64,000 nt of DNA from an uncultured Acidobacteriota bacterium (GCA_963770895.1 CAVYRF010000002.1:4864001-4928000); one strand, 5' to 3'. Positions 33,338-59,155 are shown, counted from the first letter of the stretch. A program made the numbers and translations. Notes: generated from the letters alone by a model not told the origin.

Positions 33338-33746
33338 TCAGCCAGGTTCCTGGAAAAGGGCGACTGAACCACCCGGCCCGCAAATCAGCATGAAACCCTG
33401 TGACCCGCTGAGTTGCCACGCTTCGTAGGTGTCATCTGGGTGAACCTCGATCGAGACCCCGTGCTCGAATTCAACCGTCAGGTCACCCATATCCACGATG
33501 GAAATTCCCAAAACCCGCGCGTTGAACAGAATTAGCACAGGTCCAAGAGTTGGAGTGTCCTCGGGTGTCAGCACTTGTCGCCCTCGAGGAGTCTTAAAAG
33601 TAAATGGAGACTCAACGAACAGCTGCGCCTGCCCGGACTTGTCAGAAAAGGAATAAGCCCAAGCGAAAGTCAATTTGGATAAGCTGTACGACCCCATCCT
33701 CGTCGAGTTCCAGGTGCCAGCCCTTCTCTTCGTCGCGAAGCCTCAT
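33338..33746 (-). pseudogene. DUF6188-like putative immunity protein with one extra base in a T run (~33647)
   Basis: ATG 33746 after AAGGAG reads MRLRDEEKGWHLELDEDGVVQLIQIDFRLGLFL, then shifts into SDKSGQAQLFVESPF...YEAWQLSG...LICGPGG. Confidence 0.65.
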
Positions 33747-33873
33747 TCTGGAGCTCCTTGAGGATTTCCGTTCAGCGGTTCCTCGTAAATTCGCGGAATG
33801 TGCGTCTCAGCTTGTGCCCCCCTGACGTACGCCCAAATGACTGGGCAGATTTAAAGGCGTGAGTCCCAGCTGC

Positions 33874-34123
33874 TCACTCGCCTTCCCCTGTTGGGTGCGG
33901 CCCAGTGTCTAGATGAAGCCTGATATCAGCTTGGCCAGTCTTTGCCTTCGCGGCGGCTTCTAGCCAGTCATCCCAGGCGGCTGGATCTGCAGTTGTGCCA
34001 TTGTTTAGCAGTGACATCCCACCGAGGAATCCGGCCAGATCATCTGGAGCCTGTCATCTCAAGGAGGTGTTCCAGGAAGAGGTACATGGCGACATAGGCC
34101 TCTCTGCAGGTCAGAGATTCCAT
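33874..34123 (-). pseudogene. Small immunity-like gene, frameshifted near 34045; absent from the ORF track
   Basis: Manual translation: MESLTCREAYVAMYLFLEHLLEMTGS / DDLAGFLGGMSLLNNGTTADPAAWDDWLEAAAKA...; length 250 nt = 83 codons + 1. Confidence 0.6.
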
Positions 34124-34210
34124 GCGTTAACCTTTCCGTCGCGATGCACTGCGTCCGGCCGAAGCCGGCTACGGTGGCCGCCTGGTCTGGCGACAGAGCG
34201 CGACCTACGA

Positions 34211-34279: not shown

Positions 34280-34354
34280 CGCCCCACGAGGCGACCGTAC
34301 TCATCATGGTGCGCTCGCCAAGGTTCGACGCGCCCTGCCGTTGGCGAGACTCAT

Positions 34355-34939
34355 CTAACCATTTGCTAGAGTTTGTGCGCGCTCCAATAGATCGTGTCTT
34401 ATATCATTGTCAGTGAGCCCGGGTAGTACGGGTGGCCACTCGTTGAAAGGTACGTCCATGAGCTCTAGGAGGCCTCGGTAAAATGACTCCCAGACCTCGG
34501 GCTCACTCGGATCATGGTCTTGAAAGCCTCTTAGCAATAATCTGGCTGCTTCCGGCTTAAGGTCACTATATGTTGATCCTAGAAAGCCGAGTGCCGTAGC
34601 GGCCGCTGCGCGAACATAAGGGTCCTCGTTGAAGGCCTTCGACGCGATAATCGGGAAAAACTCGCGAAGTGCCCACATGCGACCGAGCACCTGAACAGTG
34701 ATTCGTCTTACGAGTGCTGCGTCAACTGGATCGCCGCTGTTGAAATCCAAATAGGCGCGTATGACATCCTTGCTCGCGAGGTCGCCGCTGCGACCGAGAA
34801 TATGTATCAGAGTGTATGGGTCGGTGCGGAATTCGCCAGAGGCAAGTTGATGCCGGAGGTCATTGAGCACGGCGCGACGGATACGCTTACCCTGCTTCGC
34901 ATGATCCAAGAGTACTTCGTAAATGAGGTCATTGTCCAT
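34355..34939 (-). CDS. HEAT-like helical putative immunity protein (paralogue of 51968..52552)
   Basis: Shares GEFRTDPYTLIHI.GRS.DLASKD and VQVLGRMWALRE with the gene behind the Ntox28-like tip; overlaps a toxin-tip remnant. Confidence 0.75.
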   Translation of the reverse strand: MDNDLIYEVLLDHAKQGKRIRRAVLNDLRHQLASGEFRTDPYTLIHILGRSGDLASKDVIRAYLDFNSGDPVDAALVRRITVQVLGRMWALREFFPIIASKAFNEDPYVRAAAATALGFLGSTYSDLKPEAARLLLRGFQDHDPSEPEVWESFYRGLLELMDVPFNEWPPVLPGLTDNDIRHDLLERAQTLANG

Positions 34940-35078
34940 GTTGTTTGTATTGTCCCTTCAGGGCCTGAGTCGCGCTCTCGAGGTTCTTGCTGGCTACGCT
35001 CAGCTCGTTGGTCAGAGCCTGCCGCTGCGATTGAGAAAGATTGAGCTCCCTTCCGGTAGCGTCAAATAGCTTTGCTAA
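34929..35078 (-). pseudogene. Orphan C-terminal remnant of an Ntox28-like toxin
   Basis: Manual translation ...RQALTNELSVASKNLESATQALKGQYKQHGQ*, matching the end of the 52542..58688 product (RQALTNELSVASKNLDAAKQALKGQYTQHAK). Confidence 0.75.
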
Positions 35079-35127: not shown

Positions 35128-36553
35128 GGCCTTGTCCCAGAATCCGTTGAAAGTTGACGGCGATCCTCGCCCCCATAGAGCATGGGGGTGCCAACTAAAG
35201 GAGGGTCACCGTCATGAAGAAGAGTGCCACGGCGAGAGGGAGAGAGGCAACTGCTGGGCACGAGGGAGCCTGTCGGCGAGTAGGCGTGGGGGGCGTGCTG
35301 GTGCGAGCCGGAGAGGCGCTACGGGAGCTGGTGATGGCGACGGGGCTCGCGGTGTTCGAGGCGATGCTGGAGGAGGACCGCGAGGCGCTGGTGGGTCCTG
35401 CCGGCAGCCGGCAGGGAGCGCAGCGCACGGCGTATCGCTACGGACATGAGCAGGGTCGCGTGGTCCTCGGCGGCCGCAAGGTGCAGCTGGGCCGGCCGCG
35501 GGTGCGCACCGTCGGGGGCGAGGAGTTGGCGCTGCCGAGTTGGGTCGCGATGCGACAGGAAGATCCTCTCGACGAGCGAGCTCTCGAGCAGATGAAGGTG
35601 GGCGTATCGACGCGCAAGTATGCCCGGAGCCTGGAGGCCCTGCCCGAGAGCCGGAACTCGTGCTCGGTCAGCCGTTCGAGCGTGTCCCGGCGCTTCGTCG
35701 CGCGGACCCGCCAGCAGATCACCCAGCGGCTGTCCGAGTCCCTCGAAGGCAGGGACTTCCCGGTGCTCATGATCGACGGCACGGTGCTTGGCGACCATGT
35801 GCTGCTGTTGGCGATGGGCATCGAGGCGGATGGGTCGAAGCGAGTGCTGGGGGTGGTGGAAGGCAGCAGCGAGAGCGAGCAGGCAGGGCGGGCGTTGCTG
35901 CGCAACTTGATCGAGCGCGGCCTGCTGGTAGAGCGGATGCGCCTGTTCGTTGTGGACGGCGGCAAGGGCGTGCGTGCCGCGATTAGAAAGACTTTTGCGG
36001 GCTGGGCATTGATCCAACGCTGCCAGATCCACAAGATGCGCAACGTGATCGATCATTTACCTGATAGTAAGCACGCGTGGGTGCGAACGGTGATCCGGAA
36101 GGCTTGGGCCGCTGGCTCTGTCGAGCAAGCCCGGAAGCGCCTCGTGGGCTTGGCAGAGCAACTGGAAGAGGCGCATCCAGGCGCAGCGTCGTCGTTGCGG
36201 GAAGGTCTCGATGAAACCTTAACAATCATCGGCCTGCGCATGTCGGCGACGCTCACTCGCAGTTTGCGCTCGACCAATCCAATCGAGAATCTCAACAGTG
36301 CTCTGAAGCACCTGGCTCGCCGTGTCAAGCGCTGGCGAGGAGGGACGATGGTCTTGCGCTGGGCGGTCACCGGGATCCTCGAAGCCGAGAAGCGCTTCCG
36401 TCGCATCAAGGGCTACCGCGACCTGCCGGCTCTCAGCATCGCCCTCGCTCGGTCTGCCCCTTCTTACCCAGAAAAGCTTGACCAGGAGACGCTCACTGCG
36501 TGAAACTACCGCCAACTTCGCCGTCGACTTTCAACGGAAAGTGGGACATCCCC
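35128..36553 (+). mobile_element. IS256-family insertion sequence, complete, with 9-bp target duplication
   Basis: Imperfect ~36-bp terminal IRs (GGCCTTGTCCCAGAATCCGTTGAAAGTTGACGGCGA / rc GGGGATGTCCCACTTTCCGTTGAAAGTCGACGGCGA); GGTCAAGGT at 35119-35127 and 36554-36562. Confidence 0.9.
35214..36503 (+). CDS. IS256-family (mutator-type DDE) transposase
   Basis: GVSTRKY, LMIDG, VDGGKG, QRCQIHKMRN, LRSTNPIEN motifs. Confidence 0.92.
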   Translation: MKKSATARGREATAGHEGACRRVGVGGVLVRAGEALRELVMATGLAVFEAMLEEDREALVGPAGSRQGAQRTAYRYGHEQGRVVLGGRKVQLGRPRVRTVGGEELALPSWVAMRQEDPLDERALEQMKVGVSTRKYARSLEALPESRNSCSVSRSSVSRRFVARTRQQITQRLSESLEGRDFPVLMIDGTVLGDHVLLLAMGIEADGSKRVLGVVEGSSESEQAGRALLRNLIERGLLVERMRLFVVDGGKGVRAAIRKTFAGWALIQRCQIHKMRNVIDHLPDSKHAWVRTVIRKAWAAGSVEQARKRLVGLAEQLEEAHPGAASSLREGLDETLTIIGLRMSATLTRSLRSTNPIENLNSALKHLARRVKRWRGGTMVLRWAVTGILEAEKRFRRIKGYRDLPALSIALARSAPSYPEKLDQETLTA

Positions 36554-36573
36554 GGTCAAGGTTGTGTGTGGAT

Positions 36574-36951
36574 TTAGAGAACCCACCATCCTGAGGGCTT
36601 GGCGTCAAACATAACCGCCTCGGCTGCCCTGTAGTCCTGACTCCGAAGGGAAATTTTCACGACAGCCATGTCATCAAAAACAGTGCGCACCGAATCCTCG
36701 AGAGTGATGCGAGCGGAAGTCACCTTCCGCGTGATGCGCTTGCAGAGCTCATCCCTAAAACCGCACTGCCCCCAATGAAATTCACGGCCATCGGATTCGA
36801 CCACGGGCCGCGTTACCGCCGTGAGGACGGGTCCATCAAACCTCAGCTGGACGTAGTCCTGCACGAACTCAACAGAGCTTAACTGCTCACCGACGATCTT
36901 CTGCAACAAGCCTTCCTCGGTTTCGTCTGGGCGAAGCGTCATAGAAATCAT
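36574..36951 (-). CDS. Putative orphan immunity protein
   Basis: Lower-GC small ORF in the cassette array; GEQLSSVEFVQDYVQLRFDGPVLT; role inferred from context. Confidence 0.6.
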   Translation of the reverse strand: MISMTLRPDETEEGLLQKIVGEQLSSVEFVQDYVQLRFDGPVLTAVTRPVVESDGREFHWGQCGFRDELCKRITRKVTSARITLEDSVRTVFDDMAVVKISLRSQDYRAAEAVMFDAKPSGWWVL

Positions 36952-37021: not shown

Positions 37022-37432
37022 TCACGTACGGCCCTGCCCGGCTATCTCGCGCCACCTCATGAGGAGCCGATGATTGGGGTGAGATTCTGTTAGCCGAAAT
37101 GTCGACAATAAATTGCCAGCCTCGTCCCACTCGTCCCGCTCCAGTGCTATTCCATGCTCGCCCAGTGTTTTTTTCTTGAGTGCACCGCTCTCGTACCACT
37201 CCAAGGACAAGCCATTAAGTCCCCCTTGATGGATGTTGTCCTCTGCCTTCTTTGCGCCACTTGGATACCACGCCCGGCGGGGACCCTCTTGGACGCCATC
37301 GACAAATGTGATCTCGCTGATCAGATTGCCTTTCGCATCGAGCTCATAGCCGATGCCACTGAAGCGCTCACCCTCGTGCGTGTAGGAATAATCATCATTG
37401 AATTCAATCTCGCCAGCATCTACTCGCTTCAT
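37022..37432 (-). CDS. YwqK-like antitoxin/immunity protein (MORN-variant repeats)
   Basis: EGERFSGIGYE, DGVQEGPRRAWYPSG, GLNGLSLEWYESG repeats; ATGA overlap with the deaminase tip. Confidence 0.8.
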   Translation of the reverse strand: MKRVDAGEIEFNDDYSYTHEGERFSGIGYELDAKGNLISEITFVDGVQEGPRRAWYPSGAKKAEDNIHQGGLNGLSLEWYESGALKKKTLGEHGIALERDEWDEAGNLLSTFRLTESHPNHRLLMRWREIAGQGRT

Positions 37433-38325
37433 GGTTGCTGCCCTTCTGCTTGCGATTGAGGGAGATTGTTGACGCCCTGCGTTAGGGTTTCACAGTTGCC
37501 ACACCGAGGTACCCACTGGCCGACCCGATTCGACCAGAGAGACACATTGTACATTTCGAACTCAGAAAGGTCGCCGGCGCCCATCCCGAGACCCTCCCGA
37601 GCAAGCAACGCTTCGTTCAGCGTAACGAATTCAGAATGCGTGCCTGGCTTCCCCCAGGTCTCGCCCATCGTGCGAGCTCCTGACTCAACGTCCGCTAGGT
37701 AGGCGTCAAGCCTGTCTTGCAACAGAGGATGGATCTCGTCAGGGATTTCCGTAGCGTTCTGCCCAAAGAACATATCATCGGTGACCGTATCCCTGATACC
37801 GGTTAGCACAGGACCTCGCTGCTGGTTGGTCTGAGTCTGCTTCAGGAGTTGCGCTCTCTCCACGGTAGCGGCCGGGAGCGGACTTTCCTTTTTGACGGCG
37901 ACGCCTGCGCCTTCCGGATCCTCTACAGTAGTGAGGTTTTCGGGCTTGCTGGGTGGTGGCGGCGGCGTTTCAGACGGATCCGGGAGCATACTGGGCACAT
38001 CTGGCCCCGTTGAGGCCCAGTGGAGAGCACCACCCAACACTCCTCCAAGGCCCATGCTGAAGGCATAGGCGCCGGGGCTCGACACCTGCCCTTCGATGGT
38101 GTCGCTGGTCGCTTGGCCGGCGAGACCGCCGACGGCTCCTCCGCCGGCCGATGCTAGGAGGGCGCTGCCTCCCAATGCTGTGATGCCGGCTCCGGCGAGC
38201 CCACCTGTGGCGGCGGCGGCGGCGGTGACCGCGAAGGTCTTGGCGGCGAACTTGAGATCTTTTTTGACGTCGGCGTCGACGGCCTTGGCGACCTGGGTGA
38301 GGTTGCCGGCGTTGATATTGTCGCC
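37429..38325 (-). pseudogene. Orphan pre-toxin region + YwqJ-like deaminase toxin tip (no own start)
   Basis: GDNINAGNLTQVAKAVDADVKKDLKFAAKTFAVTA matches the post-core region of the 40039 Rhs; HSE...NEAL and PRCGNC zinc-deaminase motifs. Confidence 0.8.
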
Positions 38326-38326
38326 C

Positions 38327-39575
38327 AGTACATGGCGGCGACGTCGTTGCCCAGGATCACGCCGGCTCCGGTGCCGTAGGCGTTGGTGGTGGTGACGACC
38401 GAAGGTCCGCCGCAGCTGCCGAGGATCGGCGACGGGATGGGGCAGGCGGCCAGGTTGCCGTTGGGCGCCAGCACGTCGTCGAAGACCGCCGCGTTCTGCT
38501 GGTTCGAGCCCGGCGGGTTGTTGCACTGCACGTCGTCGCGGCGCGCCGCCGGGCCGACGGCGAAGGTCACCGGCACGTTCGAGATCGAGTTGCCGTAGGA
38601 GTCCTGGACCTGGACGTGCACGTCGCCGGCGTACATGCCGGGGTTGCCGCCCATCTGCTGGCTCGGCTCCTGGCTGACGATGGTCGCGGGCGGGCCGGGG
38701 AAGCCGTAGGCATAGAAGGGGGCGTCGGGGGAGAGCGCGCCGTCGTGGGTCGAGACCGAGGCGTCGACGAGCTGGACGAGCGCCTGGGTGGCATAGGCGT
38801 CGGTCGGGCTCTGCAGCAGGAACGCCGGGCTGGCCGCGGTCTGCTGGCCGAGGCGGATGGTTACCGCGGCGTGGCCGAGCGGGTCGGTGACGACCGCGAC
38901 CGAGGTGCTTTCGGCCGAGGTCGCCGGATCGACAAGGGTGCCGCCGCCGGTGCCCGCGGCGGTGGTGAAGGTGACGGTGGCCCCCTGGACGGGCTTGCCG
39001 GACGCGTCGCGCGCCACGACGGCGAGCTGGGCCGGCAGCAGGGTCCCCACCTGGCCCATCTGGTTGTTGGTCGCCGAGACGATGACCAGGCTGGCCGCCG
39101 AGAGCGGATCGGCGTTGGGCTGCACCGTGCCGTACGGGTCTGCGAGCGCGTTGGCGGCGAACTGCAGCGTCCACTGGTCGGGCGACTCGGCGGAGGCGCC
39201 GCCGGCGAGGCCGCCGGCGATCAGGTAGGCGGCGCCGCCGCTCACCGGGTCCTCCACCACCCAGATCGAGCCGGTCCAGGAGTCGCGCGTGACGGCGGTC
39301 GCCGGCACGTCCACGGTGAGGCCCTGGCTCAGCCAGTTCTGGACGTCGGCCAGGACCGCCGCCGGCTGCTGGAGGTTGGACGGCAGCGGTGTGGCGTTCT
39401 GGGCGGTGAGGTGGAGCACCGGGATGCCGGCCTGGTTGGCGACGCCGATGCCCTTGTCGGCCGAGACGGAATCGACCTGGAAGTCCTGCTCGAAGGTGAG
39501 GTGCTCCCAGGACGAGCCTTCGAGCGCCGAGACGCGCATTCCAGTCGAAGGCGGTCGAGGGGTCGGCGCCGCGCG
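38327..39575 (-). repeat. ~1.25-kb near-identical duplicate of 46812..48058 (Ig-like region of the giant carrier gene)
   Basis: Protein identical over MRVSALEGSSWEH...GVILGNDVAAMY except for a couple of residues. Confidence 0.9.
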
Positions 39576-39653
39576 CAGAGGCTGAGCGCTGCCGGCATCG
39601 CTTTCGAGGTGGATGTCTCCTGGTGCTGTTAACCCTTGCGTAACGCTTGTGGA

Positions 39654-40046
39654 TTAGTCCTTGACTGGTTCGACGGATTCAATCTCGGCGGCCTGGCAAA
39701 GAAAGCGTATGTCATTATGCTCGTAGTCGAAGGCCTCTAGCTTGACTCCCTCTAGCTGCCTGTCGGAAATATCAACTATAGCGAATCCGGTAATTTGCGT
39801 AGGGCTGCCGCCGAACCCTCGAATATTTAACTCTCTGACGGCTGTAAACTTCATATGCAGGCGATAATTGTTCGTCGAGCGATCTGTTTCGAGAGCGAGA
39901 AGTAAGGAGTAGGTCGATCGGGGTGATCGAGGGTCCTCGAAGAAGGTCAGGGCGGATACCCTCGAAAACGCCGTGTAGCCTGCCTTGCCTACCACCGCGT
40001 ACAGCTTGTCCTCGCCTTTGACTTGGGCTTTCATCGCATCACTCAT
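39654..40046 (-). CDS. Putative immunity protein cognate to the 40039 toxin tip
   Basis: Lower GC; ATG 40046 overlaps the toxin stop (ATGAGTGA); ends ITGFAIVDISDRQLEGVKLEAFDYEHNDIRFLC. Confidence 0.7.
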   Translation of the reverse strand: MSDAMKAQVKGEDKLYAVVGKAGYTAFSRVSALTFFEDPRSPRSTYSLLLALETDRSTNNYRLHMKFTAVRELNIRGFGGSPTQITGFAIVDISDRQLEGVKLEAFDYEHNDIRFLCQAAEIESVEPVKD

Positions 40047-44656: not shown

Positions 44657-44659
44657 TCG

Positions 44660-44988: not shown

Positions 44989-44989
44989 G

Positions 44990-51741: not shown

Positions 51742-51945
51742 TTACTCGCCGCGGACGGTGTTGCGCACCCAATCGAAGACCTGCACGTAGTCGTAGCCCA
51801 AGGCTGTCGCCTGCGCCGTGATCTCCGGCGTCAGCGGCTCCTCCGTGGTGCCCCGGCACCGGCGACTGGCCGGGATGGACCCCGGCGACGATCACCGAGA
51901 TCTTGATCTTCGCCACCGCGCCCGGCGACATGGCGGCCGGCGATG
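51742..51945 (-). pseudogene. Miniature relic of the carrier gene: two distant pieces (~50677-50765 and ~49381-49490) joined
   Basis: PGAVAKIKI.VIVA.VHPGQSPVP joined directly to GTTE.PLTPEITAQA.ALGYDYVQ.F.WVRNT.RGE. Confidence 0.75.
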
Positions 51946-52552: not shown

Positions 52553-55500
52553 GTTGTGTGTATTGCCCTTTCAAGGCCTGTTTCGCCGCATCGAGGTTCT
52601 TGCTGGCTACGCTCAGCTCGTTGGTCAAGGCCTGGCGCTCCAACTCCGGCAGATTAGGATTGCCGAGTCTCGCGTTGATTTGAAGGATTCTTTTGTGCAG
52701 TGATTCTGCCGCTTCGGTGACCTCCTTGAGATGCTGACCGCCTTTCTGTTGTCCTGTTGCTGACTCATAAGACGCAGCTTCGAGATCTCGCCTGGAAGTG
52801 TGCTGTATAATTTTTGCCGTTTTCGTCTTCTCGATTGCGGACTCAACTGCTTCGGATGTAAGTGACCAGCCTTCCTCGATGAGAGCTTTGGCAGCTCGAC
52901 GCTCGACGATCTTCTTGATGCCTTCCTTTATCAGTACTACGAGTGCGCCTGCTCCGGCGCCCGCCTGCTCAACTTCCACTGCCTTCTCGGTGACCTTCGC
53001 GGCCTCTACGGCGACTTTTGTGCTTTTCTTTGTGAGCGCGGCGATGCCGGTGTCGTCATTTTGCTGAGGAGGCGCCTCGTCATCCTGGTCCTTGCGTTCG
53101 ACGTGTTTGTCAAAGATATCTGACCACTCTTGCACAGCGACCTGCAGGCCTTCTGTCCCCTCTTGAACGAGGTCGGTGACCTTTTCCCAGATGCTCTTTG
53201 CTTTCTTCGGCGGTTTCTTCTCTTGCGCCGGGGCCTGGGTGGGTTGCTGCTCCGACGACGGGTTGGTGGTGGTGAGTTGCCAGGGTTGCCCAGGCTGCTG
53301 CTGGACTTTGATCTCAGGCGCGCGCAACTCTGGCGGCAGGTCGTTGGCGTCCTCGGTCGTTTCACCCGTCGGGTCCCAATAGACCGTTGGATTGTCGTAT
53401 GCGTAGAGGTACCGCTGCAGGCTGGGCGGGTTGTCGGTTTTGCCGTCGGCGGGGTCTTCGGTCAGGAAGCGGCCGATGGTGGGGTCGTAGAAGCGGGCTT
53501 TGCAGTAGTAGAGGCCGGTTTCGGTGTCGAGCTCGTGGCCGGTGAAGGCGAAGGCGTTGAAGGTGGTGCCGGTGGTTGCGCGGTAGTTGCCCCAGGCGTC
53601 GTATTGGTAGGTGGCCCGGAGGCTGCCGGTGGTGGTGGTGAGGTCGGTGATCGAGCCTAAGGCGTCGAAGAGGTAGAAGGAGCGGCCTTCGGTCTGCTGG
53701 TTTTGGGAGAGGAGGCGGTCGGGGCCGTAGTCGTATTTGGCCAGGGTCTGGTTGTTGGCGTCGGTTTCCAGGAGGACGGATTTGTCGTCGAAGGTGTAGT
53801 GGATGTAGCCGAGGGCGCCTTGCTTGAGGACTCTCAGGCCCTTGTAGTCGTACTCGTAGGTGCCCAGGATCGAGGCGGCTTGCGAGACGGCGGTGAGCTG
53901 GTCGCGGACGTCGTAGTGGAAGGTGGTGGTGGTGCCGTTCTGGGTCTTTGCGAGCTGGTTGCCGTTGGCGTCGAAGGTGTAGGCGATGCTTTGCGCGCTG
54001 TTGAGGTTGTCGGTGAGGGTGGTGAGCTGGTGGCGCGCGTTGTAGGTCAGGGTGTGGTCGGTGAGGGGGGAGCTGTCGGCGTTGCTGGTGGCTTTTTCGG
54101 TGGTGCGGTCGCCGACCTTGTCGTAGGTGTAGGCGACCTGCTGATCGGGGTAGGTGACGCCGGTGAGGCGGTCGGCGGGGTCGGAGGTGTAGGTGGTGAT
54201 CTGGCCTGCGGCGGGGCCGTTGGCGCGGATTTCGAGCTGGCTTGTGCGGTTGCTGTCGGGGTCGTACTGGTATTGGAAGTGGCTGAGGACGGTCGCGGCG
54301 CCGAGGCGGTTTTCCTGGACCTGGATGCGGGCGGCGTCGTCGTAGGTGGTGTTTTCGTTGGTGCCGTTGGGGTAGGTGACGGTCTGGAGGCGGCTGTCGC
54401 GCAGGTAGGCGTAGTTAGTGATGCCGGCTCCGTTGACGTTGACGGCGGTGAGGCGGTTGAGGGCGTCGTAGGTGTAGCGGGTGACCAGGTTGTCGGGGTC
54501 CTGGAGGGTGGTGCGGTTGCCGTTGGGGTCGTAGGTGTAGGCGAGGGTGAGGTTGTAGCGATCGGTGACGGTGAGGAGGCGATCGAACAGATCGTAGGTG
54601 CGGGCGGTCTGGCGGGTGTTGGGGGCGCCGGACCAGGTCTCCTGGATCGCCGTGGGGTTGTTGTTGGGATCGTAGGTGAGGGCGATGGACTGGAGGTCGT
54701 CGGTCGTGGGCGGCGCCGGGGGCGGATAGGTGGCCAGGGCCTGGCGGTCGATGGCGTCGTAGGCGTAGGCGATGGTCTGGCCGTCGGCGTCGGTGAGGCC
54801 GGTGCGGTTGCCGTTGGGGTCGTAGGCGTAGGACTCGACGGCGTTGTCAGGGTAGGTCTTCTGGGTGACTCGATTGAGGGTGTCGTATTGCCAGGCGGTG
54901 GTCTTGGATTCGCCGTCGGTGGTGGTGAGGCGATTGCTGTCCAGGTCGTAGGTGTAGCTGGTGCGATCGCCCACGGGGTCCTGGACGGCGGTGAGGCGGT
55001 TGGCCGCGTCGTAGGCGTAGGTCCAGGGTTGGCCGGGGAAGGCGGGGCGCTGTCTCTGGATGCGGTTGCCGTCGCCGTCGTAGGCGTAGGTGGTGGTGTC
55101 GCCGGCGTTGTCGGTTTCGGTGAGGAGGTGGCGCCGCAGGTCGTGGGTGTAGGTGGTGACGCGGCCTTCGGGGTCGGTGGCGGTGGCGCGGTCGCCCATG
55201 GTGTCCAGGGTGAAGGTGGTGATGGCGGCCAGCGGGCGCTCTTCGGCGGTCTGCAGGTTCCTTTCGTCGTATTCGTAGCCGGTGGTGTTGCTGTTGGCGT
55301 CGGTGACGAAGCGGCGGTTGCCGGCGGGGTCGTATTGGATGGTTTGGAGCAGCACTCCGGCCTTGGTGGTCTGGGTGAGGCGCCCTTCGGGGTCGTAGGT
55401 GTGGGAGCTGAGGGTGCCGCGGCGGTCGATCTCGGTGAGCTTGCTGCCCAGGCCGTCGTAGGTGAAGGTCTGGGTGTAGGCCAGCGGCTGCGGGGCGGTG

Positions 55501-58500
55501 GTCAGGATCAGCCGGTTGAGGGCGTCGTAGGCGAAGGCAGTGGTCTGGCCCTTGCGATCGGTCTGCGCCAGGCGGTTGCCGACGGCGTCGTAGGTGACGG
55601 TGGTGGTGTAGGCGAAGGGCTGCGGGTCGGTGGTCTGCACCAGGCGGTCGAGGCGGTCGAACTGATAGGTGGTGATCGATCCGCGCGGATCGGTTTCGGC
55701 GACCTGGTTGCCGGCCACGTCCCAGGCCTTGGTGATCGTGCGGCTGGCGGGCAGATCCTGCTCGACGAGGCGGTGGAGCGCGTCGTAGTGGTCAGTGGTG
55801 AGGTTGCCGTTGGCGTCGGTCTGGGTGGTGGGGTCGCCGTTGGCGTCGTAGGTGGCGGCGCTGACGGCTCCGATCGTGTCGGTCGTCGCGATCAGGCGGT
55901 TGAGCGGGTCGTAGGCGTGGGTGACGGCGTCGCCATTGGGGAGCTGCTCGGAGATGCGGTTGTTGACCAGGTCGTAGCCGTAGGTGGTGACCAGGCTGCG
56001 GTTGGGCTGCGTGACCCGGTTGAGCAGCACGGTCGTCTGGGTGAGGCGGTTGCGCGGGTCGTAGGCGAAGTTGGTGGTGTTGAGGAGCGGATCGATCTTG
56101 CGCGTGGTGTTGCCGTCGGCGTCGTATTCGAAGGTGGTGGTGTCGCCGAGCGAATCGGTGCGCTGGACGGCGCGGTTGAGGGGGTCGAAGACGGCGGTGT
56201 GGACGCGGTCCTGCGGCTGGTTGCGCTGGCGCTCGCTGACCAGGTTGCCGTTGCCGTCCCAGGTGTCGACGGTCTCGGTGGGGGAGCCCGTCTGCCAGGG
56301 CGGCAGATCCTTCTGGAGCATGCGGTTGAGCTCGTCGTAGGTGATGGTGGTGAGGCGCCCCAGCGGGTCCTGCTGCTGCGTAACGTTGCCGTTGCCGTCC
56401 AAGGTGAAGAGGGTCGACACGAGGCCCGAGTCGCTGGTGCGGTCGGTGCGGATGCGGCGGTTCAGGCCGTCGTAGGTGTGGTGGGTGATGCGCGTGCTGA
56501 AGCCCGGCTGCGAGGAGTCGCTCAAGGTTTCGCTGGCGACGTTGCCGACCCCGTCGTAGGTGTAGGTGGTGGTCTTGCCGAGCGGTTCGTCGCGCTCTGC
56601 CAGCCGCTCGGCGTCGTCGTATTGGAAGGTGGTGTCGTGGCGCGGCGACGCGCTGTCGAACCAGTCGGTTTCGAGCGTCTTGTTGCTGGCCAGGTCGTAC
56701 TGGTAGAGCTTGGTGCCGGCGGCGGCGTTGTCGATCTGCACCGGCCTCCCCTGCAGGTCGGAGGTGGTCGTCGTCACCCGCCCCAGGGCGTCGGTCCTGG
56801 TGACGACGTCGCCGACGTCGTCGTAGGCGGTGGTTTCGACGGCCGGAGCGCTGCCGACCAGGGGGTAGGTCTTGCTGGTGACGCGGTTGAGCGTGTCGTA
56901 GGTGAAGCTGGTGACGTTGCCGTTGGGGTCGGTCTGGGTGAGCGGCAGGCTGCGCACGCTCCAGGCCGTGGCGGTGACGCCGCCCAGCGGGTTCTTGCTG
57001 GAGGCGAGGTTGCCGTAGGCGTCGTAGGTAAAGGCCGTGGTGTTGCCGCGCGCGTCGGTGGTCGAGGCGCGGTCGCCGCTCGGCAGATAGGTGTTGCCGA
57101 TGGTCAGGATCTGCTGGTTGCCCGAATCGTCGTGGACGGTGACCTGCTGCTGCGTCAGGTTGCCGGCTCCGTCGTAGGTGTACGACGTGGTGACGCCGTT
57201 GCGGTCGGTGCGGGTGGCGACGCGCTGCTTGATGTAGGGCGGCGTGAAGTTGGCCGGCGGCTCGTAGGTGGTCTGGATCGAATAGCTGTGGGTCTGCCCC
57301 TGGACGTCGGTGACGGCGACCGCTTCCGACAGCTGGTTGCCGTAGGCGTCGTAGGTGTAGCTGGTGGTGACGCCGTTGGCGTCGGTGCGGCTGGTCATCA
57401 GCACGTCGTCGACCGCCCAGGTCATCTGGGTGGTGTCCTGCAGCGGATCGACGATCTGCAGCGCGCTGCCGTACTGGTTGAGGGTGTAGGTGGTGAGCTT
57501 GCCGCGCGGGTCGCTGACGCCGACCCCCAGGCCTTGCGAGGCGCGGCTGACCAGGTCCGGCAGGTCGTAGCTGAACTGCGTGACGCCGCCCATCGGCTCG
57601 GTGAGCTGGGTGACGTTCCAGCTGGGCACCTGGACGTTGCCCTGCAGGCCGATCGCCGCCGCCCCGTACTGGTAGGTCGTGGTCGCGGTGTCGAGCTGGT
57701 TTTCGGCCGCGATCAGCTTGTGGCGCAGCGCCAGCCCGTACGATGGCGGCACGGCGTAGGTGTAGGTCTCGATGCGGCTGCCGCCCTCGCGGCTGGCCTC
57801 GGTGAGGTTGCCGTAGCCGTCGTACTGGAAGCTCATCGCCATGCCGTCGGGGCCGGCGATCTGACTGATCAGCGACCGCTGCTCGCCGGTCGGCTGCAGG
57901 GCTGTCTTCTGGTAGGTGAAGGCGAGGGCGCGGCCGGCGTCGTCGGCGACGGTGAGCAGCAGCGGCGGCTGGGTGGGGTCGCTGGTGTCGTAGGTGAGCC
58001 GCGTGGTGAGGCCGTTGGGATCGGCGACGTAGGAGAGCGGGAACTCGGAGGGGGCGCCCGAGGTGCCGGGGATGAAGTGATAGCGCAGCCCGGACTTGCT
58101 GTAGAAGTCGAAGCTGCCGTCGGCGCTGTTGGCGACCAGGCTGCCGTGGTAGCCGCGCAGCGGCGTGTAGTTGCCGTGGCCGTCGCCGACGAAGCGCATG
58201 CCGGAGCCTTCGCCGCCGATGACGATGACGTCGCCGCAGGGGGTGACGACGATCTTCGCGTCGTAGCTGTGGCTCCAGCCGACGCCGAGCGGGCCGGGCT
58301 CGTCGCCGGCGTTGCTCGAATAGTTGCGCGACAGGTCGAGCGCGGGCCCATGGCCGGGCAGGGACATGTCGTCGCGCGCCAGCGACAGGTGGCCGTCGAA
58401 GAGGTCGACGCCCTTGACGATGACGTGCCCGACCGGCAGGGTGTCACGGGAGCGGAACTCCGACACGATCGTGCCGGTCACGTCCTCGGTGGTGCCGTCG

Positions 58501-58688
58501 GCGTCGGCGACGCCGTGCAGGGTGTACTGGTAGGTGCCCGGCGCGAGCGAGTAGGCGGCCGGCGGCGTGCCTGCCGGCGACAGGATGACGCTCTGTTGGC
58601 CGGCGGCGTACTCCTGGCTCTGGAACAGGGTCTGGCTGGGGCCGTCGTTGGCGGAGCCGTCGGTGTTGAGGCTGGAGATGGGCGCCAC
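52542..58688 (-). CDS. Rhs/YD-repeat protein (DUF6531 + YD repeats + Rhs core) with Ntox28-like toxin; appears 5'-truncated
   Basis: GVDLFDGHL...DMSLPGHGPALDLSRNYSS...GPLGVGWSH; YD repeats; ARFYDPTIGRFLTEDP...NPTVYWDPTG; tip H...DL.AA..E...QHLKEV.EA...L...I..IN.RL.NP; no RBS or signal; high-GC coding character ends at ~58707. Confidence 0.88.
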   Translation of the reverse strand: MAPISSLNTDGSANDGPSQTLFQSQEYAAGQQSVILSPAGTPPAAYSLAPGTYQYTLHGVADADGTTEDVTGTIVSEFRSRDTLPVGHVIVKGVDLFDGHLSLARDDMSLPGHGPALDLSRNYSSNAGDEPGPLGVGWSHSYDAKIVVTPCGDVIVIGGEGSGMRFVGDGHGNYTPLRGYHGSLVANSADGSFDFYSKSGLRYHFIPGTSGAPSEFPLSYVADPNGLTTRLTYDTSDPTQPPLLLTVADDAGRALAFTYQKTALQPTGEQRSLISQIAGPDGMAMSFQYDGYGNLTEASREGGSRIETYTYAVPPSYGLALRHKLIAAENQLDTATTTYQYGAAAIGLQGNVQVPSWNVTQLTEPMGGVTQFSYDLPDLVSRASQGLGVGVSDPRGKLTTYTLNQYGSALQIVDPLQDTTQMTWAVDDVLMTSRTDANGVTTSYTYDAYGNQLSEAVAVTDVQGQTHSYSIQTTYEPPANFTPPYIKQRVATRTDRNGVTTSYTYDGAGNLTQQQVTVHDDSGNQQILTIGNTYLPSGDRASTTDARGNTTAFTYDAYGNLASSKNPLGGVTATAWSVRSLPLTQTDPNGNVTSFTYDTLNRVTSKTYPLVGSAPAVETTAYDDVGDVVTRTDALGRVTTTTSDLQGRPVQIDNAAAGTKLYQYDLASNKTLETDWFDSASPRHDTTFQYDDAERLAERDEPLGKTTTYTYDGVGNVASETLSDSSQPGFSTRITHHTYDGLNRRIRTDRTSDSGLVSTLFTLDGNGNVTQQQDPLGRLTTITYDELNRMLQKDLPPWQTGSPTETVDTWDGNGNLVSERQRNQPQDRVHTAVFDPLNRAVQRTDSLGDTTTFEYDADGNTTRKIDPLLNTTNFAYDPRNRLTQTTVLLNRVTQPNRSLVTTYGYDLVNNRISEQLPNGDAVTHAYDPLNRLIATTDTIGAVSAATYDANGDPTTQTDANGNLTTDHYDALHRLVEQDLPASRTITKAWDVAGNQVAETDPRGSITTYQFDRLDRLVQTTDPQPFAYTTTVTYDAVGNRLAQTDRKGQTTAFAYDALNRLILTTAPQPLAYTQTFTYDGLGSKLTEIDRRGTLSSHTYDPEGRLTQTTKAGVLLQTIQYDPAGNRRFVTDANSNTTGYEYDERNLQTAEERPLAAITTFTLDTMGDRATATDPEGRVTTYTHDLRRHLLTETDNAGDTTTYAYDGDGNRIQRQRPAFPGQPWTYAYDAANRLTAVQDPVGDRTSYTYDLDSNRLTTTDGESKTTAWQYDTLNRVTQKTYPDNAVESYAYDPNGNRTGLTDADGQTIAYAYDAIDRQALATYPPPAPPTTDDLQSIALTYDPNNNPTAIQETWSGAPNTRQTARTYDLFDRLLTVTDRYNLTLAYTYDPNGNRTTLQDPDNLVTRYTYDALNRLTAVNVNGAGITNYAYLRDSRLQTVTYPNGTNENTTYDDAARIQVQENRLGAATVLSHFQYQYDPDSNRTSQLEIRANGPAAGQITTYTSDPADRLTGVTYPDQQVAYTYDKVGDRTTEKATSNADSSPLTDHTLTYNARHQLTTLTDNLNSAQSIAYTFDANGNQLAKTQNGTTTTFHYDVRDQLTAVSQAASILGTYEYDYKGLRVLKQGALGYIHYTFDDKSVLLETDANNQTLAKYDYGPDRLLSQNQQTEGRSFYLFDALGSITDLTTTTGSLRATYQYDAWGNYRATTGTTFNAFAFTGHELDTETGLYYCKARFYDPTIGRFLTEDPADGKTDNPPSLQRYLYAYDNPTVYWDPTGETTEDANDLPPELRAPEIKVQQQPGQPWQLTTTNPSSEQQPTQAPAQEKKPPKKAKSIWEKVTDLVQEGTEGLQVAVQEWSDIFDKHVERKDQDDEAPPQQNDDTGIAALTKKSTKVAVEAAKVTEKAVEVEQAGAGAGALVVLIKEGIKKIVERRAAKALIEEGWSLTSEAVESAIEKTKTAKIIQHTSRRDLEAASYESATGQQKGGQHLKEVTEAAESLHKRILQINARLGNPNLPELERQALTNELSVASKNLDAAKQALKGQYTQHAK

Positions 58689-58882
58689 GGTGAGGGTGAC
58701 CTGGGTTGGCGATTTCTCAGATTTCCGATTTTGGACAGGGGTGGCCCAAACTCTATGCCGGTCGGTCAGAAAACCGGACAGGTTTTGGTCCGCACCCCAG
58801 ACGAAAGGTCTTTCTTTGTTTACAGACGCTTACGGTGCGCTATGTCAGGAGGTCTGGAGTCTGGCGACTGCGCGACTTACCA

Positions 58883-59155
58883 TCAAGCTTCTTCGACCCA
58901 GTCCTCTTTCTTAACATTAAACTCCCATTCTGCCTGGCCCATGGCGTCTTCCACGGAGTCGTGATAGGTGTCAGTCATCTCCTCGCCGTCTTTGTCAAGA
59001 TAGAGGAGGTAATAGCCTTGGGAGTCTGGAATCTTGACGATTAGCAGCCGGGAAGGAAGTGGCAGAAGCTGGCCATCACGAAAGTGCCGAGTGTTACCTG
59101 TAGCTATAACTGATGGCCCAAGCGTCAATGAGTGCAGTATTATGTAATAGCTCAT
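58883..59155 (-). CDS. Small putative immunity protein (paralogue of 45282..45554)
   Basis: MSYYIILHSLTLGPSVIATGNTRH...TDTYHDSVEDAMGQAEWEF. Confidence 0.75.
   Translation of the reverse strand: MSYYIILHSLTLGPSVIATGNTRHFRDGQLLPLPSRLLIVKIPDSQGYYLLYLDKDGEEMTDTYHDSVEDAMGQAEWEFNVKKEDWVEEA

What the first reader, a model, noticed from the sequence alone, without database searches (positions are those of the whole stretch)
33338..59155. Polymorphic toxin array built on a giant signal-peptide / pseudo-transglutaminase / Ig / Rhs carrier
Seen: 26 kb of minus-strand cassettes in which high-GC pieces of one large gene alternate with lower-GC toxin tips and about eleven small genes, five of them overlapping a tip's stop codon. 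The pieces can be ordered into a virtual carrier of more than 3,500 aa: signal peptide, Ala/Pro linker, transglutaminase-like domain, Ig-like region, (gap), DUF6531, YD repeats, DPxG, toxin. Established: Rhs shells encapsulate a C-terminal toxin, with immunity encoded downstream. Inference: an N-terminal signal peptide and the absence of PAAR, VgrG, TcB or T6SS genes in the window point to a Sec/Tat-routed, possibly surface-displayed Rhs toxin with an uncharacterised delivery module. This is the best candidate here for an under-described system.
Basis: partly seen in the sequence, partly recalled or inferred. Interest (0 to 1): 0.82.

Follow-up and report, generated by a model that had tools for sequence, protein, structure and literature searches.

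The report
Spare-parts array for giant Rhs toxin
This stretch is a store of broken spare copies and alternative poison tips for a giant secreted bacterial toxin whose intact 4,014-residue gene lies just past the window, and whose front end probably clips onto an even larger neighbouring surface protein.

Summary
Window 33,338-59,185 (minus strand) holds deletion derivatives of one huge gene, mixed with lower-GC toxin tips, small immunity-type genes and insertion sequences.

An intact 4,014-aa gene lies 2.4 kb beyond the window end, behind the IS nest. It reads signal peptide, Ala/Pro/Gln linker, Cys-less transglutaminase fold, Ig domains, DUF6531, Rhs shell, DPxG and toxin. A 65%-identical paralogue sits on the other large replicon.

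49 cluster representatives from several phyla share the fused architecture. The genome gave no match to the T6SS sheath or PAAR families.

The architecture is not new. Zhang et al. 2012 (Biol Direct) described "inactive transglutaminase" Rhs polymorphic toxins in silico. I found no experimental work.

What I add:
- The pseudo-transglutaminase module is mostly a stand-alone ~1,000-aa protein (4,579 cluster representatives at E<=1e-30).
- It sits beside a large surface protein with an alpha/alpha-toroid domain in 47 of 80 loci, and is fused to one in a relative.
- A complex model with controls supports binding of the two domains.

Most likely this is a Sec-exported Rhs toxin docked on a co-encoded giant adhesin, with the window as its tip reservoir.

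The parts
59208..64000 (.). IS nest separating the array from the intact gene. It holds the 3' part of an ISAzo13-type transposase gene (59208-59537, minus), an IS66 transposase (59612-61117, plus), IS21 IstA/IstB (61177-62754 and 62748-63668, plus) and a Mutator/IS256-type transposase running off the window end (63419-64000, minus).
   Evidence: Pfam. Window 59208-59537 matches profile positions 203-308 of PF07592, and L001:1290-2351 (just after the intact gene's stop) matches positions 2-205. One ISAzo13-type gene was therefore split by the later insertions.
58883..59179 (-). 98-aa small gene. It was the first gene after the intact toxin gene before the IS insertions, so it is the inferred cognate immunity gene of the intact gene's tip.
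   Evidence: Position. No Pfam or NCBIfam family. A paralogue lies at 45282-45554 (88% nt) and a 112-nt remnant at 34169-34280. The immunity role is an inference.
52542..58688 (-). Orphan 1: a 2,048-aa 5'-truncated Rhs copy. It equals aa 1897-3672 of the intact protein at 97% aa identity and carries its own tip after the DPxG motif.
   Evidence: Pfam RHS_repeat E 2.9e-129, DUF6531 E 2e-11, and Ntox28 E 1.7e-4 on the tip alone, below the curated cut-off. Mapping.
51968..52552 (-). 194-aa HEAT-repeat protein whose ATG overlaps the orphan-1 stop by 11 nt. Inferred immunity protein.
   Evidence: Pfam HEAT_2 E 2.5e-6. Overlap.
51744..51942 (-). Scrap of the carrier gene: aa 215-245 joined directly to aa 668-704.
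   Evidence: blastn.
51382..51675 (-). 97-aa ORF of unknown family.
   Evidence: no family found.
46551..51239 (-). Orphan 2: a 1,562-aa (from its ATG) 3'-truncated copy. It holds the signal peptide, linker, pseudo-transglutaminase module and Ig domains (aa 1-1597 of the intact protein), then about 50 unrelated residues.
   Evidence: Pfam Transglut_core E 1.2e-11. 93% aa identity over aa 1-1596. Homology ends at 46704.
46000..46554 (-). 184-aa ORF overlapping the stop of orphan 2. Probably an immunity gene left behind when its tip was deleted.
   Evidence: No Pfam or NCBIfam family. The role is an inference.
45282..45554 (-). 90-aa paralogue of the 98-aa gene.
   Evidence: 88% nt identity over 330 nt.
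44674..44996 (-). Fragment of the signal-peptide and Gln-rich linker region (aa 1-162). It abuts the next Rhs piece in a different frame.
40039..44660 (-). Orphan 3: Rhs piece (ORF 40039-44562, 1,507 aa) equal to aa 2501-3772 of the intact gene. It includes the shared glycine-rich pre-toxin stretch and has its own C-terminal end.
   Evidence: Pfam RHS_repeat E 3.3e-98. Mapping. The last 269 aa have no Pfam or NCBIfam family.
39654..40190 (-). Small gene after orphan 3. The likely start is the ATG at 40046, which overlaps the tip's stop. Inferred immunity protein.
   Evidence: Weak Imm50 match, E 0.0078, below the cut-off. Overlap.
38328..39576 (-). Orphan 4, part a: Ig-region fragment (aa 1145-1561).
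   Evidence: 99.2% nt. Big_1 E 5.1e-8, just below the cut-off.
37429..38325 (-). Orphan 4, part b: pre-toxin stretch plus a YwqJ-type deaminase tip, in another frame than part a.
   Evidence: Pfam YwqJ-deaminase E 1.6e-7, above the cut-off. Frames.
37022..37432 (-). 136-aa MORN-variant repeat protein with an ATGA overlap on the deaminase stop. This resembles the YwqK-type partner of YwqJ deaminases; that pairing is recalled, not tested.
   Evidence: Pfam MORN_2 E 2.4e-6, below the cut-off. Overlap.
36574..36951 (-). 125-aa ORF of unknown family. Possibly a further immunity gene.
   Evidence: no family found.
35128..36553 (+). Mutator/IS256-type insertion sequence that cut off an orphan tip. 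Three more copies at 99.7-99.9% identity lie elsewhere on C2.
   Evidence: Pfam Transposase_mut E 4.8e-44. Copies.
34355..35026 (-). Remnant of the last ~30 codons of an Ntox28-like tip (34932-35026) plus a second 194-aa HEAT protein (34355-34939).
   Evidence: 78% nt identity to 52040-52639. The remnant translation parallels the orphan-1 tip end. HEAT_2 E 7.2e-9.
33338..33697 (-). 119-aa DUF6188 protein at the low-GC end of the array. Possibly an orphan immunity gene.
   Evidence: Pfam DUF6188 E 1.4e-22. The role is an inference.

Best explanation
The window holds the orphan, or 'spare-parts', array of a Sec-exported Rhs polymorphic toxin locus in an Acidobacteriota genome.

The working gene. 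It lies 2.4 kb past the window end (G000:C2:4930403-4942447, minus strand, 4,014 aa). In order it encodes:
- a signal peptide
- a low-complexity Ala/Pro/Gln linker and a helical stretch
- a ~650-aa module made of a transglutaminase fold without the catalytic cysteine plus a domain with no solved look-alike
- invasin-type Ig domains
- the DUF6531 plug and the Rhs shell
- the DPxG cleavage motif, a glycine-rich pre-toxin stretch and a toxin

The array. Downstream of that gene, and separated from it by four nested insertion sequences, lie deletion derivatives of duplicated copies. They carry other tips (Ntox28-like, an unknown one, YwqJ deaminase) and their immunity genes. They share 97-99% identical stretches of up to 5.3 kb with the working gene, so homologous recombination can swap tips.

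Delivery. This part is inferred, and I put it at about 0.55. The pseudo-transglutaminase module does not act as an enzyme. It docks a conserved loop (LPxSLP) and the surface around its dead active site into the central face of an alpha/alpha-toroid domain. That domain sits near the N-terminus of the ~6,350-aa Ig-repeat protein encoded immediately upstream, which ends in an ice-binding-like adhesive domain. The toxin would thus ride on a giant adhesin and act on contact.

What is shown and what is inferred. The gene structures, homologies, synteny, the fusion and the lack of T6SS matches are shown. Secretion, docking, toxicity, immunity and recombination are inferred.
For: Intact gene and paralogue.

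Pieces mapped onto it.

Tips and immunity-type genes, with start/stop overlaps.

IS nest, with one ISAzo13-type gene split in two.

Family: 49 of 49 returned representatives have PF01841 and PF05593, and 47 also have PF20148, with differing tip families.

No VipB and no PAAR match in the genome.

Transglutaminase fold. For model residues 43-333 the best matches are 3isr_A (Z 13.2, rmsd 3.5, 153 aligned), PeiW (Z 10.0) and factor XIII (Z 9.4). Invasin matches residues 706-984 (Z 11.4) (on a model of pLDDT 81). The Cys position holds D, A, S or E in 81 of 81 aligned module ORFs from 78 loci.

Partner:
- Pfam finds a Prenyltrans/SQHop_cyclase toroid, CARDB, FlgD_ig, Big_13, Calx-beta and a C-terminal pAdhesive_15 domain (E 8e-51) in the upstream giant ORFs.
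- The giant's stop lies 23 nt before the toxin gene's ATG.
- Giant upstream ORFs are also present in G003, G015 and G036.
- A same-strand toroid ORF lies next to the module in 47 of 80 loci. In 9 more, a giant upstream ORF is cut by the locus edge. 13 have flanks too short and 11 have none.
- Among 41 relatives, 10 have a full-length strong toroid match, and 9 of these have the module beside it.
- In G030:C22 one 7,600-codon frame holds both the toroid (aa 411-658) and the module (aa 5640-6413).

Complex model. The verdict was 'the model supports binding; it does not show it'. Score 0.91, best of 3 controls 0.00. The mark was reached by 58 of 80 solved complexes and 2 of 110 mismatched pairs; these counts hold only roughly because my own alignments were used. 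The runs agree in at least 86% of contacts and the partner's pLDDT is at least 85. Interface residues are among the most conserved in the module: R178 and G179 98%, W189 100%, L273 96%, P274 93%.
Against: - There is no experimental evidence of any kind, and no expression data were examined.
- How a 4,014-aa or a 6,350-aa protein would cross the outer membrane of a diderm is unknown. No dedicated transporter was identified.
- The docking rests on synteny, one fusion and a structure model's own confidence.
- 11 of 80 loci show no toroid ORF.
- G033 has the module on a 3.6-kb contig with no toroid found. G004 has a toroid but no module found (89% complete, 610 contigs).
- In the fusion protein the two domains are 5,000 residues apart in one chain. 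That fits head-to-tail or intramolecular binding as well as toxin docking.
- The giant gene beside the C1 paralogue is split into two overlapping frames.
- The signal peptide of the intact gene has an unusually long N-region of about 45 aa.
- Two of the window's joints are out of frame, so the orphans may be mere debris.
- The main tip has no recognisable toxin family.
Confidence: 0.78

Rival explanations
1. Anchoring as Zhang et al. 2012 proposed. The inactive transglutaminase binds a peptide of the producer's own envelope, such as peptidoglycan stem peptides or another surface protein. The giant neighbour is only a co-regulated adhesin.
For: This is the published prediction (PMC3482391, passages read). 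The fold is that of peptide-binding thiol enzymes. His and Asp of the triad are kept in most family members: His in 69 and Asp in 74 of the 83 rows with a residue in those columns. That would fit a retained peptide-binding groove.
Against: The module travels with the toroid protein in monoderm and diderm phyla and in an archaeal MAG alike. It is fused to a toroid protein once. The complex model places the dead active-site surface against the toroid.
Confidence: 0.15
2. The window's cassettes are decaying debris of duplications and IS activity. They play no part in diversifying the toxin.
For: Two joints are out of frame. One tip is cut by an IS. Orphan 1 lacks a signal peptide and the docking module. 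IS elements surround and interrupt the array.
Against: The long pieces are 97-99% identical to the working gene and have no internal stops over 1,500-2,048 codons. Tip and immunity pairs keep their overlapping start/stop arrangement. Homology ends exactly at the DPxG border in orphan 1, as at classical rhs orphan loci (recalled).
Confidence: 0.2
3. The giant protein and pseudo-transglutaminase pair is primarily an adhesion, surface-layer or matrix system. The module is an assembly or capping factor for the giant protein, and the Rhs toxin is an occasional passenger with no need for the partner in delivery.
For: The stand-alone ~1,000-aa form dominates: 148 of the best 150 representatives are shorter than 1,700 aa, and 33 of the 47 toroid-linked loci are stand-alone. 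The toroid proteins carry adhesin-type repeats and one matches an anammox S-layer model weakly.
Against: This does not conflict with docking. It differs only in what the docking is for. Independent fusions of Rhs or a lipase-like domain behind the module in several lineages suggest that the position is useful for effectors.
Confidence: 0.25
4. Export by a type VI secretion system or as a Tc-type (TcB/TcC) complex.
For: The Rhs shell and DUF6531 plug are shared with such effectors.
Against: No VipB/TssC or PAAR match in a 94.95%-complete genome. An N-terminal signal peptide is present. Pfam finds only four families in the protein, none of them typical of TcB or SpvB.
Confidence: 0.03

Closest known systems
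Polymorphic toxins with an inactive transglutaminase domain (Zhang, de Souza, Anantharaman, Iyer, Aravind 2012, Biol Direct 7:18, PMC3482391; in silico only)
   Same: Signal peptide, transglutaminase domain lacking triad residues, occasional bacterial Ig domains, RHS repeats, variable C-terminal toxin, and assignment to the Sec-dependent route. This locus fits on every point.
   Different: Here ~560 residues of linker and helices lie between the signal peptide and the domain. The paper has no mention of a toroid, prenyltransferase or macroglobulin-like partner. It does not name the stand-alone form in the passages I read, and I did not see its figures or supplements.
WapA of Bacillus subtilis and Streptococcus suis (Sec-dependent Rhs/YD toxins of monoderms). 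Recalled; for PMC12704120 I saw only the search listing and the start of the abstract.
   Same: Signal peptide, YD/Rhs shell, variable C-terminal toxin with a downstream immunity gene, and contact-dependent action without a T6SS.
   Different: WapA is anchored to the cell wall by its own N-terminal region (recalled). It has no pseudo-transglutaminase module and no giant partner, and it is about half the size.
T6SS Rhs effectors and classical enterobacterial rhs loci with orphan tips (recalled)
   Same: DUF6531 plug, Rhs cage, DPxG self-cleavage motif, displaced orphan tips with immunity genes downstream of the main gene, and lower-GC tips.
   Different: No PAAR or VgrG link and no T6SS match. 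The orphans here are kilobase-scale internal-deletion derivatives that also include pieces of the N-terminal delivery half.
CdiA/CdiB contact-dependent inhibition (recalled)
   Same: A toxin is displayed at a distance from the cell on a long filament, with modular tips, immunity genes and orphan arrays. This is the closest match for how the system would work.
   Different: In CDI the filament and the toxin are one protein exported by a TpsB partner. Here the stalk and the toxin would be two proteins joined non-covalently. Pfam reported no TPS domain among the four families it found in the protein.
LapG/LapA (a transglutaminase-like cysteine protease acting on the N-terminus of a giant adhesin; recalled)
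   Same: A transglutaminase-fold protein engages the N-terminal region of a giant repeat adhesin encoded nearby. LapG is a structural match (4fgo_A, Z 8.4, rmsd 3.6, 124 aligned).
   Different: LapG is an active Cys-His-Asp protease that cleaves its partner. Here the cysteine is absent in 81 of 81 and the partner domain is an alpha/alpha toroid. This is an analogy only.

Membership tests
Rhs/YD polymorphic toxin | Long array of RHS/YD repeats forming the shell | tested here: met
   PF05593 at E 2e-118 with 23 stretches in the intact protein, and at E 2.9e-129 and 3.3e-98 in the window pieces.
Rhs/YD polymorphic toxin | N-terminal plug domain (DUF6531) before the repeats | tested here: met
   PF20148 at E 4.3e-11, above the cut-off. 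Also present in orphan 1.
Rhs/YD polymorphic toxin | Conserved core ending in the PxxxxDPxG motif, with sequence conservation stopping there and a variable tip following | tested here: met
   The translations read ...NPTVYLDPDGR...NPTVYWDPTGE and ...NPSVYVDPDGL. Orphan 1 loses homology to the intact gene at aa 3664-3672, right at the motif. The motif itself is recalled.
Rhs/YD polymorphic toxin | Cognate immunity gene directly downstream of each tip | tested here: inconclusive
   Small genes overlap four tip stops. One is MORN-type after the YwqJ deaminase and one matches Imm50 weakly. Protection was not tested.
Rhs/YD polymorphic toxin | Toxicity of the C-terminal domain | not testable with these tools
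   Only the deaminase tip passes a Pfam cut-off.
Inactive-transglutaminase polymorphic toxins (Zhang et al. 2012) | [quoted passage not shown] | tested here: met
   A hydrophobic 19-mer (mean Kyte-Doolittle 1.49) is followed by APA/QT. The homologues have short signal peptides. No dedicated predictor was run.
Inactive-transglutaminase polymorphic toxins (Zhang et al. 2012) | Transglutaminase domain that has lost triad residues, placed N-terminal to the RHS repeats | tested here: met
   PF01841 at E 7e-11. Fold match 3isr_A at Z 13.2. No Cys at the catalytic position in 81 of 81. In this subgroup the Asp is lost as well: Ala in 9 rows.
Inactive-transglutaminase polymorphic toxins (Zhang et al. 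2012) | Variable C-terminal toxin domains across members | tested here: met
   Different tip Pfam accessions occur among the 49 homologues, and five different tips occur in this genome.
T6SS Rhs effectors | PAAR or VgrG-linked N-terminus and a T6SS in the genome | tested here: not met
   No PF05488 and no PF05943 match in G000 (completeness 94.95%). The N-terminus is a signal peptide.
Tc toxin TcB/TcC | TcB-type N-terminal region (SpvB, beta-propeller) and a TcA partner | tested here: inconclusive
   Pfam lists only RHS_repeat, DUF6531, Transglut_core and Big_1 in the protein. No search for TcA was made.
Active transglutaminase-like cysteine proteases (BTLCP/LapG type) | Cys-His-Asp catalytic triad | tested here: not met
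   The Cys position holds D 37, A 38, S 5, E 1 and C 0 of 81. The placement of that position rests on the recalled G-x-C-x-x-F-A motif.
Two-partner secretion / CDI (CdiA) | N-terminal TPS domain and a CdiB/TpsB gene | tested here: inconclusive
   Pfam reported no TPS-type domain in the protein. No genome-wide search for TpsB was made.

The most novel reading that the evidence does not exclude
The pseudo-transglutaminase module and the alpha/alpha-toroid domain form a widespread, unnamed two-protein docking pair on the surface of bacteria and some archaea. The pair comprises a giant repeat protein and a ~1,000-aa cap protein. Several lineages have turned it into a toxin launcher by appending an Rhs cage or another effector to the cap. 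In that case this locus is a contact-dependent delivery route that needs no T5SS, T6SS or T7SS, in which stalk and warhead are separate, non-covalently joined proteins. The cap's second domain (aa 930-1300, modelled at pLDDT 94) may be a fold with no solved relative.
Probability: 0.45. Interest if true: 0.75.

Novelty: new member of a known kind. Interest (0 to 1): 0.6.

Why it matters
Rhs toxins are well understood when a T6SS fires them or when the cell wall of a monoderm holds them. How diderm bacteria without a T6SS deliver 3,500-4,000-aa signal-peptide Rhs toxins has stayed open since the architecture was catalogued in 2012.

This locus gives a concrete, testable answer: a defined interface between the dead transglutaminase module and a toroid domain of a co-encoded giant adhesin. 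The evidence is synteny across many phyla, a natural fusion and a controlled complex model.

It also shows that the 'delivery module' is really a large family of its own, with thousands of cluster representatives. That family has no curated name and contains a domain without a solved look-alike.

The window itself is a clear example of an orphan array that stores kilobase-sized internal-deletion copies of the whole carrier, not only tips.

Tried and rejected
Technical failures and empty searches:
blastn replaced it.
- The search for related loci with a single sequence found no relative in genome contigs. The alignment query found 120.
- The search of earlier findings returned nothing that bears on this locus.

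Structure searches:
- Foldseek of the 1,041-residue model gave only generic strings of beta-sandwich domains (complement C3/C4/C5, TEP1, ECAM) at TM 0.09-0.14. I do not read this as homology to alpha-2-macroglobulins.
- The middle domain (aa 930-1300; model pLDDT 94.2, pTM 0.91) found no match. The Foldseek best was E 8.8e-3 at probability 0.09. The VIA-align best was Z 5.0 against 48,161 chains, with no chain above that. This shows no match was found, not that the fold is new.

Family and motif searches:
- A thioester motif C-x-E-Q was sought in the giant protein and not found.
- NCBIfam has no model for the module, the 98-, 184- and 125-aa proteins, or two tips.

Literature:
- No paper holds 'alpha-alpha toroid' with 'transglutaminase' or 'Transglut_core' with 'SQHop_cyclase'.
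- 'Inactive transglutaminase' with 'RHS' returned only the two Aravind-lab papers and two unrelated vesicle papers.
- The 2025 J Bacteriol vesicle paper concerns separate genes.
- Supplements of papers were not available, and figure 5D of Zhang et al. was not visible.

Not attempted: RNA or read evidence, a signal-peptide predictor, genome-wide searches for TpsB, TcA or type I/II secretion genes, and identification of the toxin activity of the main, C1 and orphan-3 tips.

Full report
**Observation.** The region is as described. GC swings between 0.64-0.85 and 0.53-0.61 in 500-nt windows. The large minus-strand ORFs are:
- 2,048 aa (52542-58688)
- 1,660 codons (46551-51533)
- 1,507 aa (40039-44562)
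- 461 aa (38154-39539)
- 581 codons (37429-39174)

Pfam finds RHS_repeat and DUF6531 in the first, Transglut_core and a weak Big_1 in the second, RHS_repeat in the third, Big_1 in the fourth and a YwqJ-type deaminase in the fifth. Eleven small minus-strand ORFs lie between them. Five of their start codons overlap the preceding stop.

**The virtual carrier exists.** The genome has three contigs, 8.16 Mb and 70.7% GC, and the window is G000:C2:4864001-4928000. blastn of the region against the whole genome found a collinear copy at C2:4931160-4942719 and a 77-78% identical one at C1:592243-602974.

The C2 copy is one open frame of 4,048 codons. From its ATG at 4942447 it encodes 4,014 aa. Pfam places Transglut_core at aa 675-816, Big_1 near aa 1326-1386 (below the cut-off), DUF6531 at aa 1990-2062 and 23 RHS stretches after that. 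The C1 gene encodes 3,881 aa from its likely start and is 65% identical in protein.

The intact C2 gene is on the minus strand, so the window's array lies downstream of it.

**What the pieces are.** In residues of the intact protein:
- Orphan 1 is aa 1891-3664 plus its own tip.
- Orphan 2 is aa 1-1597 plus about 50 foreign residues.
- Orphan 3 is aa 1-162 joined to aa 2501-3772 plus its own end.
- Orphan 4 is aa 1145-1561 joined to aa 3731-3814 plus a deaminase.
- A scrap joins aa 215-245 to aa 668-704.
- A further tip survives only as its last ~30 codons, cut by a Mutator-type IS that has three more near-identical copies on C2.

The joints in orphans 3 and 4 change frame. The simplest history is serial duplication of the whole unit (gene plus immunity gene) with different tips, followed by internal deletions.

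Three tips share a glycine-rich stretch before the toxin proper (…IEGQVSS.G.Y…). That stretch, and the DPxG border, are where homology to the intact gene stops. This is as expected for tip exchange by homologous recombination, which is inferred here, not observed.

**The IS nest and the first immunity gene.** The intact gene's stop is followed within about 50 nt by the 5' two-thirds of an ISAzo13-type transposase gene (PF07592 positions 2-205). The last third (positions 203-308) is at window 59208-59537. IS66, IS21 and Mutator-type elements lie in between. Before these insertions the 98-aa gene at 58883-59179 was the first gene after the toxin, so I take it as the cognate immunity gene. This is an inference, and the protein has no known family.

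The other small genes are:
- two HEAT-repeat proteins
- a MORN-variant protein after the deaminase
- a weak Imm50 match
- a DUF6188 protein
- four without a family

**Family and route.** A word-indexed search restricted to proteins of 2,212-7,041 aa, using aa 640-1900, returned 49 cluster representatives of 2,707-3,979 aa. All carry PF01841 and PF05593, and 47 also carry PF20148.

Their tip accessions differ: PF07591/PF13403, PF00545, PF14021, PF15652, PF13930, PF14412, PF14411 and PF09994. From memory these are HINT, ribonuclease, TNT, SHH, an endonuclease, AHH, LHH and a Tle1-like lipase; the tool gave only the numbers.

Source names mention Acidobacteriota, Deltaproteobacteria, Gammaproteobacteria (Candidatus Thiodiazotropha) and Tectimicrobiota. 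The ten I read begin with signal-peptide-like sequences.

Among relatives the module is patchy: 11 of 41 genomes, and 7 of 401 in a phylum-wide sample at E<=1e-20. The named relatives are Acidobacteriota (Thermoanaerobaculia and Holophagales), so the host is presumably a diderm.

The genome gave no match to VipB/TssC or PAAR. It has many other Rhs genes.

**Already in print.** Zhang et al. [quoted passage not shown] They place the domain after a signal peptide or TM helix, followed by RHS repeats and sometimes next to bacterial Ig domains. [quoted passage not shown] Table 1 lists it under the Sec-dependent route. I read these passages. My searches found no experimental follow-up.

**The module.** AlphaFold2 on a 12-row alignment of aa 600-1640 gave pLDDT 81 and pTM 0.70. 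VIA-align 2 against 48,161 chains matched:
- model residues 43-333 to transglutaminase-fold thiol enzymes: 3isr_A (Z 13.2, rmsd 3.5, 153 aligned), PeiW 8jx4_A (Z 10.0), TglA 9crn_A (Z 9.7), factor XIII 4kty_A (Z 9.4) and LapG 4fgo_A (Z 8.4)
- model residues ~700-984 to invasin and intimin Ig domains: 1cwv_A (Z 11.4) and 1f02_I (Z 10.6)

The part between (aa 930-1300), folded alone on 65 rows, gave pLDDT 94.2 and pTM 0.91. It had no convincing match.

Across 81 module ORFs from 78 loci, the motif G-N-x-x-D-x-A-S holds D, A, S or E and never C at the position that aligns with the catalytic cysteine of the recalled G-x-C-x-x-F-A motif. His is kept in 69 and Asp in 74 of the 83 rows with a residue in those columns. 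The Acidobacterial Rhs-fused group has lost the Asp too.

A profile search of 1.84 billion representatives found 4,579 proteins at E<=1e-30 and 8,590 at E<=1e-10; the weaker ones may be ordinary transglutaminase cores. Of the best 150, 148 are shorter than 1,700 aa, so the usual form is a stand-alone protein of about 1,000 aa. NCBIfam has no model for it.

**The partner.** Immediately upstream of the intact gene, on the same strand, lies an ORF of 6,377 codons (C2:4942471-4961604). Its stop is 23 nt before the toxin's ATG. It has:
- a signal peptide and an N-terminal region with an HExxH motif
- a Prenyltrans/SQHop_cyclase-type alpha/alpha toroid at about aa 450-570
- CARDB, FlgD_ig, Big_13 and Calx-beta repeats
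- a C-terminal pAdhesive_15 domain, found in the C1 copy at E 8e-51; the C2 copy's last ~260 aa find the same relatives' upstream C-termini as the C1 copy's

Giant upstream ORFs of about 5,900-6,000 codons also precede the homologues in G003, G015 and G036.

In three distant loci with stand-alone modules (a Bacillus, an Archangium and a Methylovulum) the upstream protein again has the toroid, combined with VWA, CarboxypepD_reg, MG2 or CARDB domains.

I built a profile from my own toroid hits. It found 49 same-strand toroid ORFs (E<=4e-30) in 47 of the 80 loci fetched:
- 33 beside stand-alone modules
- 9 beside Rhs-fused ones
- 5 beside ORFs cut by a contig end

Of the other 33 loci, 9 have a giant upstream ORF cut by the locus edge, 13 have under 3 kb on both sides and 11 show none.

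Gene order varies: the toroid gene is upstream in most loci and downstream in others.

Among the 41 relatives, full-length strong toroid matches occur in 10 genomes. Nine of these have the module on the same contig within a few kb or in the next gene. The exception, G004, is 89% complete in 610 contigs.

In G030:C22:45467-68266 a single 7,600-codon frame has a signal peptide, the toroid at aa 411-658 and the module at aa 5640-6413. It has no YD repeats, and its C-terminus carries an HSLGN motif (lipase-like, recalled).

**Complex model.** I gave the module (aa 640-1290, 65 rows) and the toroid (giant protein aa 361-660, 33 rows) to complex prediction. The verdict was that the model supports binding but does not show it:
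- Score 0.91, best of 3 controls 0.00.
- The mark was reached by 58 of 80 solved complexes and 2 of 110 mismatched pairs. These counts hold only roughly because my own alignments were used.
- The runs agree in at least 86% of contacts, and the partner's pLDDT is at least 85.

I know of no solved complex of these two folds (recall only). The interface uses module residues 174-191 and 264-276, which are toxin aa 813-830 and 903-915. They include R178/G179 (98% conserved), W189 (100%) and L269, L273, P274 (90-96%). On the toroid it uses the GGW-type loops of one face.

**How it most likely works.**
- Shown: the gene structures, the array, the family, the synteny, the fusion and the absence of T6SS matches.
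- Inferred from family knowledge: Sec export, self-cleavage at DPxG, toxin enclosed in the Rhs cage, and immunity by the downstream genes.
- Inferred here, at about 0.55: the dead transglutaminase module clips the toxin onto the toroid near the N-terminus of the giant adhesin. The toxin is then presented on a long stalk and acts on contact.
- Unknown: how either protein passes the outer membrane, which end of the giant protein is cell-proximal, what triggers release, the targets, and the activity of three of the five tips.

Whether it is made is untested.

**Verdict.** As a kind of system it was catalogued in 2012, so the locus is a new member of a known kind. The conserved toroid partner, the fusion, the modelled interface and the unmatched middle domain are the parts I could not find in print. 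They make an old open question testable.

Noticed in passing
G000:C1:602728-622742 (L004 and beyond): The giant toroid/adhesin gene beside the C1 paralogue is in two overlapping frames: 5,315 codons at 602728-618675 and 1,731 codons at 617547-622742, the latter holding the toroid and CARDB repeats. This could be a frameshifted pseudogene, an assembly error or two genes.
   Followed up: partly
G000:C2:4960600-4961500 (L105), N-terminus of the giant protein: A ~330-aa domain before the toroid contains an HExxH motif (…HEILHQWG…). The region is shared with the G030 fusion protein but not with the short toroid proteins of other phyla. Pfam gave no family. It may be a metallopeptidase next to the proposed docking site.
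   Followed up: partly
G030:C22:45467-68266 (L106, L107): This 7,600-codon ORF fuses the toroid protein and the pseudo-transglutaminase module. It ends in a domain with an HSLGN (GxSxG-like) motif in place of an Rhs cage, which suggests another effector type on the same carrier.
   Followed up: partly
window 9045-18524, plus strand: A 2,781-codon ORF with 16 Big_5 Ig domains and a CopC-like match is followed by two small phage-tail-collar-domain proteins (17498-18001 and 17937-18524). It appears unrelated to the Rhs array.
   Followed up: partly
G000:C2:5824000-5827000 and about ten other places: The genome holds many more Rhs genes: several of 1,200-1,660 codons and one open frame of 3,757 codons that did not match the pseudo-transglutaminase module.
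   Followed up: no
L052 (Methylovulum miyakonense HT12 scaffold), 9284-12565 and 14285-17545: Two stand-alone pseudo-transglutaminase paralogues lie in tandem downstream of one toroid protein.
   Followed up: no
L054 (Candidatus Hydrothermarchaeota MAG contig): The toroid-plus-module gene pair also occurs on a contig assigned to an archaeon, and this was the strongest toroid match of all (E 8e-105). The binning was not checked.
   Followed up: no
window 49700-50000 and 50880-51020: The linker of the carrier is built of short tandem units, PGAPGTA-like and Q/A/T-rich 15-nt repeats. Their copy number differs between the intact gene and orphan 2.
   Followed up: no
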